Made by a program: the position numbers
Source: Escherichia coli
GTDB taxonomy: Bacteria; Pseudomonadota; Gammaproteobacteria; Enterobacterales; Enterobacteriaceae
Assembly (NCBI RefSeq): GCF_045037415.1
Contig: NZ_CP173438.1
DNA: 64,000 nt
Strand: one strand, 5' to 3'
Shown: positions 6,001-9,000 of the stretch, in pieces
Layout: every line of letters begins with the position of its first letter
Position numbering within the stretch: position 1 is the first letter of the stretch

Positions 6001-9000
6001 GAGCCCGGTTCAAACACGTCGGTGATGGTACGGTTACGCATCGCTTCTTTCGGCGTGCCGCTCAGATTATTTGGGTTGTATGACGGGCTGTTAGCCATCG
6101 CCAGCACTTCACCGGTGTTGACATCCACCAGCACGGCGCTACCAGATTCAGCCTTGTTAAAGGCCACTGCGTTGTTCAGTTCGCGATAAACCAGCGCCTG
6201 CAGGCGTTCATCAATACTCAGCGTCAGGTTGTGCGCTGCCTGGCTGTCAGTAGAAGAAATATCTTCAATTACGCGACCATAGCGGTCTTTACGCACAATG
6301 CGCTCACCCGGCTGCCCGGTAAGCCATTTATCGAAACTCTTCTCGACCCCCTCAATCCCTTGGCTATCGACGTTAGTAAAGCCGATGAGGTGAGCAGTCA
6401 CTTCGCCGGATGGATAATAACGGCGAGATTCTTCACGCAGATGAATTCCCGGCAGTTTCAGTTTTTTGATGTAGTCCGCCATGTCAGGGTTTACCTGACG
6501 CGCCAGATAAATAAAGCGCCCTTTCGGGTTGGCGTTAATGCGGGCTGAGAGCTGATCCAGCGGAATATTGAGCGCGTTAGCCAGCGCCTTCCAGCGGTCA
6601 CCGACGCTGATACCGCCAGCGTCATGCACTTCTTTCGGGTCAGCCCAAATCGCTTTTACTGGCACACTCACCGCTAACGGGCGACCAGAACGGTCAGTAA
6701 TCATGCCGCGGGAGGTGGAAACTTGCTGAACGCGAAGAGAACGCATGTCGCCCTCTTTCACCAGCATATCCGGGGAGATAACTTGTAACCACGCTACGCG
6801 TCCGAGCAGAAAAGCCAGCGCCAGGAGAATACAGCCGCATAACAACGCAAAACGCCAACTGATAAAGTTGGCATGTTCTTCCTGACGTTTTGGTTTCTGC
6901 GTTTTCGCCGCTGCTTTCATGCGTCGCGTTTATCCTTATTTTTGCACTACGATATTTTCTTGTGACGGATCAACATGCTGCATTTGCAGCTTTTCCGTGG
7001 CTATCCTTTCCACCCGGCTATGGTCGCCGAGCGCATTCTCTTCAAGGATCAGGTTGCGCCATTCAATGTCTAAAGCATCTCGCTCCAGCACCAGTTGTTC
7101 GCGCTGAGCGGTCAGTAAACGGGTATGGTGCGCCGTGGTTACCACGGTCACCGCCGTCAAAATAATGCAAATGAACAGGCAGAGTGGCAGCTTCCCAAAT
7201 CGCAAAAGATCGTCACCGATAACGCCAGGCAAGGCATGGCGCTCGTGGCTTCCCATCGATCCTTTAACTTTGCTTAGAGCTTCTGTCACTCTGCTGATCA
7301 TGCGTTCGTCCTCTCTGCAATACGCAGAACTGAACTACGGGCACGAGGGTTCTCAGCCACCTCTTCTTCGCCCGGCATCAACTTACCTAGTGCTCGCAAC
7401 TGACGCCCCCCCAGTTTTTTGAGCTGCTCTTCTGTCATCGGTAACCCTGCCGGAACTTGCGGACCGCGGCTGTTTTCACGCATAAAACGTTTCACAATGC
7501 GGTCTTCAAGTGAGTGGAAGCTGATGATCGAAAGCCGCCCCCCCGGGGCCAGCACATTGAGCGAGCTTTTTAGCGCCTGCTCTATCTCCTCCAGTTCACT
7601 GTTTACCCAAATGCGCACCGCCTGGAAGGTACGGGTCGCGGGATGTTTAAACTTATCTTTCACCGGCGTTGCGGCAGCCACGACTTCCGCCAGTTCTTTG
7701 GTGCGGGTCATCGGCTGTTCGCGGTTACGCTCGACAATGGCGCGAGCAATGCGTTTGGCAAAACGCTCTTCACCATAGGTTTTCAATACCCAGGCGATAT
7801 CGGCTTCTTCTGCGGTTTGTAGCCATTCAGCGGCTGACTGCCCACGGGTTGGGTCCATACGCATGTCCAGCGGACCATCGCGCATAAAGGAAAAGCCGCG
7901 TTCAGCATCATCAAGTTGCGGTGAAGAGACGCCAAGATCGAGGAGAATGCCGTCGATCTTGCCGATAAGATCGCGCTCGGCAACATATTCGCCCAGCGCA
8001 GAGAAAGGTCCGTGGATGATGGAGAAGCGCGGATCATCAATAGTCTTCGCAACGGCGATAGCCTGCGGGTCGCGATCGATCGCCAGCAAACGCCCCTCTT
8101 CGCCAAGCTGCGAGAGGATCAGACGTGAGTGACCACCGCGACCAAAAGTCCCATCAATGTAGATGCCATCAGGACGGATATTGAGGCCATTAACGGCTTC
8201 ATCCAGCAGCACCGTAGTATGTTTATAGTTTTCCATCATTTTATAGAGACAAGTCCTGCAGTCGCTCCGATAAGTCTCCGGTAGCCAACTGCTCTGCGTC
8301 GATATCTTCCTTGACCTGTTGATGCCAGGTTGTTTCATCCCACAGCTCAAACTTGTTGAACTGTCCAACCAGCATCACTTCTTTTGTCAGCCCGGCATGT
8401 TGCCGCAGTACTGGCGCGATTAACAATCGACCTGCGCCATCCATCTGACATTCGCTGGCATGACCTAACAGTAGGCGCTGCACACGGCGCTCAACCGGGT
8501 TCATGCTCGACAGACGCGATAATTTTTGCTCGATAATTTCCCATTCAGGCAGGGGGTAAAGCAGCAGGCACGGGTGATGAATGTCAATGGTGCAAACCAT
8601 TTGACCGGCAGCGTTCTCAAGCAGCTGTTCCCGATAACGGGTAGGCACTGATAAGCGCCCTTTGCTGTCGAGATTGACTAACGTTGCTCCCCGGAACATG
8701 CCAGCCTCACCCCTTATTCCCACTTTGCCCCACAATTTCCCACTAAAAGGAGTTTACGGAGCGGAGGAAAAGCTTGTCAAGCCAGTCACAAGGCATACCG
8801 AGGTAAAAAACCCGATGTTTACGGCTAATATCAGCGTTGTTTATTTTACGTCCAACGTGCGAAGCAAATTAACGTTATGAATAGCTGTAAGAAAAAATCC
8901 CTCATCGTCATCACCGTTTTAAAATGACTCACTATTTTCCACAGCAAATATAAAGTGTCAGTTTGCGACGCGAGCGGCATTTTAGGACATATCTTCTCTG

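What the first reader, a model, noticed from the sequence alone, without database searches (positions are those of the whole stretch)
8719..8743. Triple direct repeat (GTGGG, 10-bp period) in the mraZ leader
Three identical pentamers on the minus strand are spaced exactly one helical turn apart, 20-45 bp upstream of the mraZ start codon. This matches the described MraZ operator architecture at Pmra, the master promoter of the dcw cluster.
Basis: partly seen in the sequence, partly recalled or inferred. Interest (0 to 1): 0.2.

Follow-up and report, generated by a model that had tools for sequence, protein, structure and literature searches.

The report
MraZ operator at E. coli Pmra
The three GTGGG repeats are the already-described binding site through which the MraZ protein shuts down its own promoter at the head of the E. 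coli cell-division gene cluster, so the finding is correct but ordinary.

Summary
On the minus strand, GTGGG sits at 8743-8739, 8733-8729 and 8723-8719, a 10-bp period, 44 to 20 nt before the mraZ ATG (8699). It is unique in the window and not expected by chance. The window is E. coli, and the repeats lie between a conserved sigma-70 promoter (TTGACA-18-TAAACT) and a full-length mraZ followed by rsmH, ftsL, ftsI and murE.

In 76 distinct Enterobacteriaceae leaders the three GTGG cores are invariant while neighbouring bases vary. The boxes keep a fixed 7-nt distance from the -10 hexamer, not from the start codon. Two published genome-wide TSS maps put the start at window 8744/8743, so the operator covers about +1 to +26.

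The literature describes exactly this: three GTG(G/T) boxes six nt apart, bound by MraZ to repress Pmra, with one subunit per box in a cryo-EM complex.

Refinements:
- The conserved unit is GTGG. The fifth G of box 3 is E. coli-specific.
- The often-quoted 38-nt UTR disagrees with the TSS maps (45/44 nt).
- E. coli alone gains a formal G-quadruplex motif here.

The parts
8775..8780 (-). Pmra -35 hexamer TTGACA
   Evidence: Promoter scan gives TTGACA/18 nt/TAAACT, 10 of 12 matches. TTGACA with an 18-nt spacer is present in 76/76 distinct Enterobacteriaceae leaders.
8751..8756 (-). Pmra -10 hexamer TAAACT
   Evidence: The distance from the -10 end to box 1 is 7 nt in 69/76 leaders.
8743..8744 (-). 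Transcription start of Pmra (A8744 or G8743)
   Evidence: Kim et al. 2012 supplement: K-12 TSS at 89589, UTR 45 nt, and also 45 nt in K. pneumoniae. Cappable-seq supplement: TSS at 89590. K-12 89634 (mraZ ATG) corresponds to window 8699. The older literature figure of a 38-nt UTR would give 8737.
8739..8743 (-). MraZ box 1 (GTGGG; invariant core GTGG 8743..8740)
   Evidence: core invariant in 76/76, fifth base G in 75/76.
8729..8733 (-). MraZ box 2 (GTGGG, preceded by invariant TT)
   Evidence: core invariant in 76/76, fifth base G in 75/76.
8719..8723 (-). MraZ box 3 (GTGGG in E. coli; conserved form AAAGTGG, 8726..8720)
   Evidence: AAAGTGG invariant in 76/76. The fifth base is G only in the E. 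coli window (T 52, C 13, A 10 elsewhere). It matches the Mollicutes consensus AAAGTG[T/G].
8710..8713 (-). G-rich element GGGG in the 10-bp register (offset +30); possibly a degenerate fourth box or part of the ribosome-binding region. Membership uncertain.
   Evidence: 92-97% G per column in the box-anchored profile. GGGG in 54/56 short leaders and 10/20 long leaders.
8705..8708 (-). Likely Shine-Dalgarno GAGG, 5 nt before the ATG
   Evidence: Read directly from the sequence. Conserved as GTGAGG in most leaders. This is an inference.
8241..8699 (-). mraZ coding sequence (152 aa), the repressor that binds the boxes
   Evidence: Pfam MraZ PF02381, E = 4e-47, two domains. Aligns with M. genitalium MraZ of the cryo-EM DNA complexes. 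D11, K13, R15, D87 and R91 are invariant in 80 orthologues.
7298..8239 (-). rsmH (mraW), second gene of the Pmra transcript
   Evidence: Pfam Methyltransf_5, E = 7e-124. K-12 annotation.

Best explanation
The repeats are the MraZ operator of Pmra (mraZ1p), the first promoter of the E. coli dcw (division and cell wall) cluster. Three direct GTGG-core boxes with a 10-bp period lie on one face of the helix and start at the transcription start site (about +1 to +26). One MraZ subunit binds each box: its two DXXXR-containing half-domains place K13, R15 and R91 (E. coli numbering) in the major groove, and neighbouring subunits of an opened MraZ ring bind cooperatively. An oligomer sitting on the start site and the initially transcribed DNA prevents RNA polymerase from forming a productive open complex or from clearing the promoter. 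This gives negative autoregulation of mraZ and repression of the downstream dcw genes.

Shown here: the sequence anatomy, the statistical non-randomness, the conservation pattern, the promoter anchoring, and the identity of the downstream gene and its DNA-contacting residues.

Taken from the literature: MraZ binding and repression in E. coli, the one-subunit-per-box geometry (solved for M. genitalium only), and the TSS position from published genome-wide maps.

Inferred: the step of transcription initiation that is blocked.
For: - Exact triple repeat, unique in the window, against a chance expectation of 0.01 or less.
- It sits between a consensus-like promoter and mraZ-rsmH-ftsL-ftsI-murE.
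- The window is E. coli, and the locus is present in 5,417-5,423 of 5,426 complete genomes.
- Phylogenetic footprint: the GTGG cores are invariant in 76/76 distinct Enterobacteriaceae leaders, while adjacent columns have information content of only 0.3-0.75 bits.
- The boxes are anchored 7 nt after the -10 hexamer in 69/76 leaders, although the distance to the ATG varies between about 20 and about 30 nt.
- Within E. coli the common polymorphisms fall outside the boxes.
- TSS maps put +1 at or next to the first G of box 1 in E. coli and Klebsiella.
- Literature: MraZ represses Pmra by binding repeats downstream of the -10 in E. coli. The consensus is three GTG(G/T) boxes six nt apart, and cryo-EM shows one subunit per box with Lys13, Arg15 and Arg86 contacting the bases. 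In B. subtilis, removing the repeats abolishes repression.
- The E. coli protein keeps these residues.
Against: - No binding or reporter experiment can be run here, and the primary E. coli paper (Eraso et al. 2014, PMC4010979) is not held. Its content is known only through other papers' summaries and my recollection of its abstract.
- The structural model comes from M. genitalium (four boxes, octamer), not E. coli.
- The comparative set is confined to one family, so part of the conservation reflects shared ancestry, although the variable neighbouring columns argue against that.
- The literature value of a 38-nt UTR conflicts with the TSS maps. That changes the box positions relative to +1 but does not move them out of the promoter region.
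Confidence: 0.93

Rival explanations
1. G-quadruplex element. The four G-runs GGG-N7-GGGG-N6-GGG-N5-GGGG (8741..8710, non-template strand and 5' UTR) fold into a G4 in DNA or mRNA and control transcription or translation of mraZ, instead of or in addition to MraZ binding, as proposed for the S. aureus mraZ promoter.
For: The stretch is one of only two canonical G3 quadruplex motifs in the 64-kb window, with a G4Hunter score of 1.68. A paper reports a G4 downstream of PmraZ in S. aureus with biophysical and reporter data, and claims conserved G4-forming motifs in Gram-negative mraZ promoters.
Against: The canonical motif exists in only 1 of 81 leaders, the E. coli window itself. Every other species has GTGG[T/C/A] at box 3, leaving a two-G run. 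What is invariant is GTGG including the T, plus the TT and AAA flanks, which a G4 does not need. Loops of 5-7 nt predict a weak G4. No E. coli G4 experiment was found.
Confidence: 0.04
2. Translational or RNA-level leader element. The repeated GUGGG units in the 5' UTR act in the mRNA, for example as Shine-Dalgarno-like standby sites, an sRNA or protein docking site, or a structured leader.
For: With the TSS at 8744/8743 all three boxes are transcribed into the 44-45-nt leader, and they are purine-rich.
Against: The boxes keep their distance from the -10 hexamer, not from the start codon, which shifts by about 10 nt in 20 of 76 leaders. In the minimum-free-energy fold of the leader the boxes are unpaired and the only hairpin involves the SD/ATG region. 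No Rfam family matches here. The strict 10-bp period is a DNA-helix property.
Confidence: 0.02
3. Operator for a different regulator of Pmra (for example PdhR or LexA) rather than MraZ.
For: PdhR was reported to bind in front of mraZ (ChIP enrichment 1.7-fold, very weak gel shift), and LexA boxes are mentioned for the cluster.
Against: The PdhR gel-shift probe corresponds to window 8801..8758. It covers the -35 region and upstream and does not include the boxes. PdhR is a GntR-type regulator (established knowledge) and its own operator in that paper's probe table is the palindrome AATTGGT-N3-ACCAATT, not a set of direct repeats. Three direct repeats match the MraZ consensus exactly.
Confidence: 0.01

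Closest known systems
E. coli MraZ operator at Pmra/mraZ1p (Eraso et al. 2014, J Bacteriol 196:2053; cited)
   Same: It is the same locus. The 94-nt promoter-operator differs from K-12 MG1655 at two positions, both outside the boxes. It has three direct repeats between the -10 hexamer and mraZ.
   Different: Nothing substantive. The strain is not K-12: promoter-spacer C instead of A at 8763, and T instead of C at 8745.
Mycoplasma genitalium / M. gallisepticum MraZ boxes (AAAGTG[T/G]-N3 repeats; cryo-EM complexes, PMC12957436)
   Same: Direct repeats with a 10-bp period, a GTG(G/T) core and an A-rich 5' flank. E. coli box 3 (AAAGTGG) matches exactly. The TSS lies inside or next to box 1. The protein keeps the Lys/Arg/Arg contact residues.
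   Different: Four boxes there, three clear boxes here, plus a G-rich element in the fourth register. The free M. genitalium protein is mainly an octamer; the oligomeric state of E. coli MraZ was not examined here. The MraZ proteins match only weakly (phmmer E about 1e-11).
Bacillus subtilis MraZ binding repeats (GTGG[A/T]G x3, 4-nt spacers; bioRxiv 10.1101/2022.02.09.479790)
   Same: Three GTGG-core direct repeats with a 10-bp period in the mra promoter. The triple repeat is unique in the genome there and unique in this window here.
   Different: The repeat is described as a hexamer, and it lies in a Gram-positive promoter context.
Burkholderia cenocepacia MraZ site (four 7-nt repeats, 3-nt spacers; PMC7761207)
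   Same: It lies downstream of the -10 box, overlaps the TSS, and has a 10-bp period.
   Different: Four repeats.
S. aureus PmraZ G-quadruplex (PMC11796246)
   Same: A G-rich tract between the promoter and mraZ that satisfies a G4 motif.
   Different: In Enterobacteriaceae the G3 motif is confined to E. coli. No evidence was found that it forms or matters.

Membership tests
MraZ operator (MraZ boxes / MraZ binding repeats) at the dcw promoter | Three or more direct repeats with a GTG(G/T) core | tested here: met
   Three GTGG(G) boxes in one orientation. Consensus as stated.
MraZ operator (MraZ boxes / MraZ binding repeats) at the dcw promoter | 10-bp period (4-nt cores separated by 6 nt) | tested here: met
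   Start-to-start spacing is exactly 10 and 10 bp. The same register holds in 81/81 leaders.
MraZ operator (MraZ boxes / MraZ binding repeats) at the dcw promoter | Located directly upstream of mraZ at the head of the dcw cluster, at or just downstream of the -10 hexamer and TSS | tested here: met
   Gene order is mraZ-rsmH-ftsL-ftsI-murE. The promoter is at 8780..8751. TSS maps give window 8744/8743.
MraZ operator (MraZ boxes / MraZ binding repeats) at the dcw promoter | Cognate MraZ protein with two DXXXR motifs and the Lys/Arg/Arg base-contacting residues | tested here: met
   PF02381 with two matched stretches. D11-K13-R15 and D87-R91 are present and invariant in 80 orthologues.
MraZ operator (MraZ boxes / MraZ binding repeats) at the dcw promoter | Boxes conserved at the orthologous position while the flanks diverge | tested here: met
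   Cores invariant in 76/76 leaders, with adjacent columns at 0.3-0.75 bits.
MraZ operator (MraZ boxes / MraZ binding repeats) at the dcw promoter | Direct binding by MraZ and box-dependent repression | not testable with these tools
   Reported for E. coli by Eraso et al. 2014, as summarised. Box dependence is shown in B. subtilis and M. genitalium. The primary E. coli paper is not held.
Promoter/5'-UTR G-quadruplex | Four runs of at least three G separated by loops of 1-7 nt | tested here: met
   The motif at 8710..8741 (minus strand), G4Hunter 1.68.
Promoter/5'-UTR G-quadruplex | Motif conserved in orthologous leaders | tested here: not met
   Present in 1 of 81 leaders.
Promoter/5'-UTR G-quadruplex | Formation of the quadruplex in vitro or in vivo | not testable with these tools
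   It needs CD/NMR/DMS or ligand experiments. ViennaRNA folding as run here did not model G-quadruplexes.

The most novel reading that the evidence does not exclude
The most novel reading the evidence does not exclude has two parts. First, the Enterobacteriaceae operator may have a degenerate fourth box: the conserved AAGGGG at 8715..8710, exactly one period after box 3, making it a four-box site like those of Mycoplasma and Burkholderia. Second, the E. coli-specific T-to-G change in box 3 completes a G-quadruplex motif, which could add a second, MraZ-independent layer of control of the dcw promoter in E. coli alone.
Probability: 0.12. Interest if true: 0.3.

Novelty: already known. Interest (0 to 1): 0.08.

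Why it matters
Pmra drives mraZ and, according to the literature, the first eleven genes of the dcw cluster (mraZ to murC), several of them essential for division and peptidoglycan synthesis. The MraZ operator is the only dedicated repressor site described for it. The by-products are of minor practical use for anyone annotating or engineering this promoter: the conserved unit is GTGG rather than GTGGG, the boxes are anchored to the promoter rather than to the start codon, and modern TSS maps give a 44-45-nt leader rather than the often-quoted 38 nt.

Tried and rejected
- I tried to read the primary papers: Eraso 2014 by DOI and PMC id, Hara 1997, Mengin-Lecreulx 1998 under PMC107449, which a reference list later showed to be the wrong id (PMC107448 is correct), and the Vicente 1998 review. 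None could be read. A text search for 'TGGGN' plus MraZ found only irrelevant papers.
- The EcoCyc paper only lists MraZ as a newly curated transcription factor.
- I considered a G-quadruplex and rejected it as the conserved function, because the motif is absent from 80 of 81 leaders.
- I considered an RNA-level leader element and rejected it: the boxes are unpaired in the predicted fold, there is no Rfam hit, and they are anchored to the promoter rather than the ATG.
- I considered PdhR. Its probe lies upstream, over the -35 region.
- I looked for further MraZ-type sites in the window. Only two double boxes exist elsewhere, which is chance level.
- The genome-contig scan returned only Enterobacteriaceae. 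I ran no further search on more distant taxa, because wider conservation is already documented and would not change the verdict.

Full report
**Observation.** The minus strand of the window reads TTGACA-(18 nt)-TAAACT-CCTTTTA-GTGGG-AAATT-GTGGG-GCAAA-GTGGG-AATAAGGGGTGAGGCTGGC-ATG. The pentamers occupy 8743..8739, 8733..8729 and 8723..8719, with a period of exactly 10 bp. The triple pentamer (one mismatch allowed) is found once in 64 kb on both strands, against 0.01 expected. The looser GTGG-N6-GTGG-N6-GTGG is also unique, with none in 100 shuffles. Double boxes elsewhere in the window (16601, 34956) are at chance level.

**Context.** The ORF 8699..8241 is a 152-aa MraZ (Pfam PF02381, E = 4e-47, two half-domains), followed by RsmH/MraW (PF01795), FtsL, FtsI and MurE. 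Cra, IlvH and IlvI lie upstream. A 401-nt stretch around the site is 100% identical to many E. coli chromosomes and present in 5,423 of 5,426 complete genomes, where the gene is annotated as the division/cell wall cluster transcriptional repressor MraZ. K-12 MG1655 has mraZ at 89634..90092. A consensus scan finds one strong sigma-70-type promoter, TTGACA (8780..8775), 18 nt, TAAACT (8756..8751), matching 10 of 12 positions.

**Comparative test.** A scan of one genome per species returned 80 loci, all Enterobacteriaceae, with MraZ 88-96% identical. They gave 76 distinct 130-nt leaders.
- All keep GTG[GT]-N6-GTG[GT]-N6-GTG[GT] in the same register.
- In a box-anchored column profile the GTGG cores are invariant (76/76), as are the TT before box 2 and the AAA before box 3.
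- The immediately adjacent columns are free to vary: offsets -3..-1 carry 0.56-0.75 bits, offsets 15-16 carry 0.30-0.74 bits, and offsets 24-29 carry 0.57-1.17 bits.
- The fifth base is G in 75/76 for boxes 1 and 2. In box 3 it is G only in the E. coli window (T 52, C 13, A 10 elsewhere). The selected unit is therefore GTGG with box-specific flanks, and the 'three identical pentamers' are an E. coli peculiarity.
- The -35/-10 pair with its 18-nt spacer is present in 76/76 leaders, and box 1 begins 7 nt after the -10 hexamer in 69/76.
- The distance from box 3 to the ATG falls into two classes, 19-21 nt (56 leaders) and 28-30 nt (20 leaders). The boxes therefore travel with the promoter, not with the start codon.
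- Within E. coli the 94-nt promoter-operator is found in 5,417 genomes with at most a few mismatches. The two common polymorphisms (8763 C/A and 8745 T/C) lie outside the boxes.

**Transcription start.** A held paper repeats the classical statement that mraZ1p transcripts carry a 38-nt 5' UTR. That would put +1 at window 8737, 14 nt beyond the conserved -10 hexamer, an unusually long distance. Two genome-wide maps disagree with it and agree with each other.
- Kim et al. 2012 list the mraZ TSS at K-12 89589 (UTR 45 nt), and the orthologous Klebsiella TSS also at 45 nt.
- Cappable-seq lists 89590 (score 27.2) and nothing at 89596.

In window coordinates this is A8744 or G8743, 7-8 nt after TAAACT and at the first base of box 1. 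On this mapping the operator covers roughly +1 to +26.

**What is known.**
- Held papers summarise Eraso et al. [quoted passage not shown]
- My recollection of that paper's abstract is that purified MraZ bound a region containing three direct repeats between Pmra and mraZ, and that a DNA-binding mutant failed to repress. This is memory, because the paper itself is not held.
[quoted passage not shown] In its cryo-EM complexes, one M. genitalium MraZ subunit inserts Lys13, Arg15 and Arg86 into the major groove of each box, the octameric ring opens to align subunits on successive boxes, and the TSS lies inside box 1.
- In B. subtilis three GTGG[A/T]G repeats with 4-nt spacers are required for repression.
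- In B. cenocepacia four repeats lie downstream of the -10 box and overlap the TSS.
- The E. coli protein aligns with the M. genitalium protein across the DNA-binding motifs. D11, K13, R15, D87 and R91 are invariant in all 80 orthologues.

**Mechanism.** The best-supported account is cooperative binding of adjacent subunits of an MraZ oligomer to three boxes on one face of the DNA, across the start site and the initially transcribed region. This blocks RNA polymerase and gives negative autoregulation of the operon.
- The sequence anatomy and conservation are shown here.
- Binding and repression are taken from the literature, and the TSS position from published genome-wide maps.
- The geometry is extrapolated from the Mycoplasma structure.
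- The precise step that is blocked is inferred from the position relative to +1.

**Rivals.**
1. *G-quadruplex.* The E. coli leader satisfies the canonical motif (GGG-N7-GGGG-N6-GGG-N5-GGGG, 8741..8710). It is one of only two such motifs in the window, with G4Hunter 1.68. A paper claims a functional G4 in the S. aureus mraZ promoter and conserved G4-forming motifs in other species. However, only 1 of 81 Enterobacteriaceae leaders has the G3 motif, and the invariant T of GTGG and the AT flanks are not explained by a G4.
2. *RNA-level leader element.* The boxes are transcribed, but they are unpaired in the predicted fold, match no Rfam family, and are anchored to the promoter rather than to the ATG.
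3. *Another regulator.* PdhR was reported to bind weakly in front of mraZ, but its probe is window 8801..8758, over the -35 region, and does not include the boxes.

**Verdict.** Interest is low. The minor additions are:
- the GTGG core, rather than GTGGG;
- anchoring to the promoter rather than the start codon;
- the discrepancy between the 44-45-nt and 38-nt leader lengths;
- a conserved G-rich element in the fourth register;
- an E. coli-specific G4 motif;
- a single E. coli genome (WS3294A) with a 5-bp deletion in box 1.

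Noticed in passing
L082 (NZ_CP035819.1, E. 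coli WS3294A), aligned to window 8742..8746: One of 5,417 E. coli genomes has a 5-bp deletion that removes TAGTG, which is most of MraZ box 1 and the mapped start site. It is either a natural operator/promoter variant or an assembly error.
   Followed up: partly
window 8737 versus 8743..8744: The commonly quoted 38-nt 5' UTR of mraZ1p disagrees with two genome-wide TSS maps giving 45 and 44 nt. The maps fit the conserved -10 hexamer and the older figure does not.
   Followed up: yes
window 8719 (fifth base of box 3) and 8710..8741: The G at 8719 is found only in E. coli among 76 distinct Enterobacteriaceae leaders. It creates both the 'three identical pentamers' and a canonical G-quadruplex motif that the other 80 leaders lack.
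   Followed up: yes
window 8710..8715: AAGGGG lies exactly one 10-bp period after box 3. GGGG is kept in 54/56 short leaders and 10/20 long leaders in the box-anchored register, although it is about 10 nt from the ATG, rather far for a Shine-Dalgarno. It may be a degenerate fourth MraZ box.
   Followed up: partly
L053, L055, L056, L059, L062-L063, L065-L070, L072-L074, L076-L080 (leaders): Two leader-length classes exist. About 10 extra nt lie between box 3 and the ribosome-binding site in Buttiauxella, Cedecea, Siccibacter, Pseudescherichia and others, which is one helical turn.
   Followed up: partly
window 8758..8801 (minus strand): The published PdhR gel-shift probe for the mraZ promoter maps here. 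It covers the -35 hexamer and the imperfect inverted repeat CTTGT-N10-ACAAG. Binding was reported as very weak.
   Followed up: partly
window about 8973 and about 9096 (minus strand), the cra-mraZ spacer: Cappable-seq lists two further same-strand start sites at K-12 89360 (score 9.4) and 89237 (score 2.1) inside the 600-bp cra-mraZ intergenic region. Their function is unknown and they do not coincide with the promoter-like hits.
   Followed up: no
L021 (CACSKA010000010.1): This record is titled Chryseobacterium sp. 18061 but carries an Enterobacteriaceae-type mraZ locus whose listed 70-nt leader is identical to that of Citrobacter sp. 18056 (L019). It is probably contamination or a mislabelled public assembly.
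   Followed up: no
E. coli genome collection: Three records labelled as plasmids carry the mraZ promoter region. They are probably misassigned replicons or chromosomal fragments.
   Followed up: no
window 47787..47814 (minus strand): This is the second and stronger canonical G-quadruplex motif in the window, GGGGAGTTGGGGGAATAAGGGCGGAGGG, with G4Hunter 1.96.
   Followed up: no
window 19515..19741 (-), 14609..14757 (+), 21498..21597 (+), 42737..42829 (+): Rfam gathering-score matches elsewhere in the window: SgrS, the leucine operon leader, a TPP riboswitch and naRNA4. All are expected for this E. coli region.
   Followed up: no
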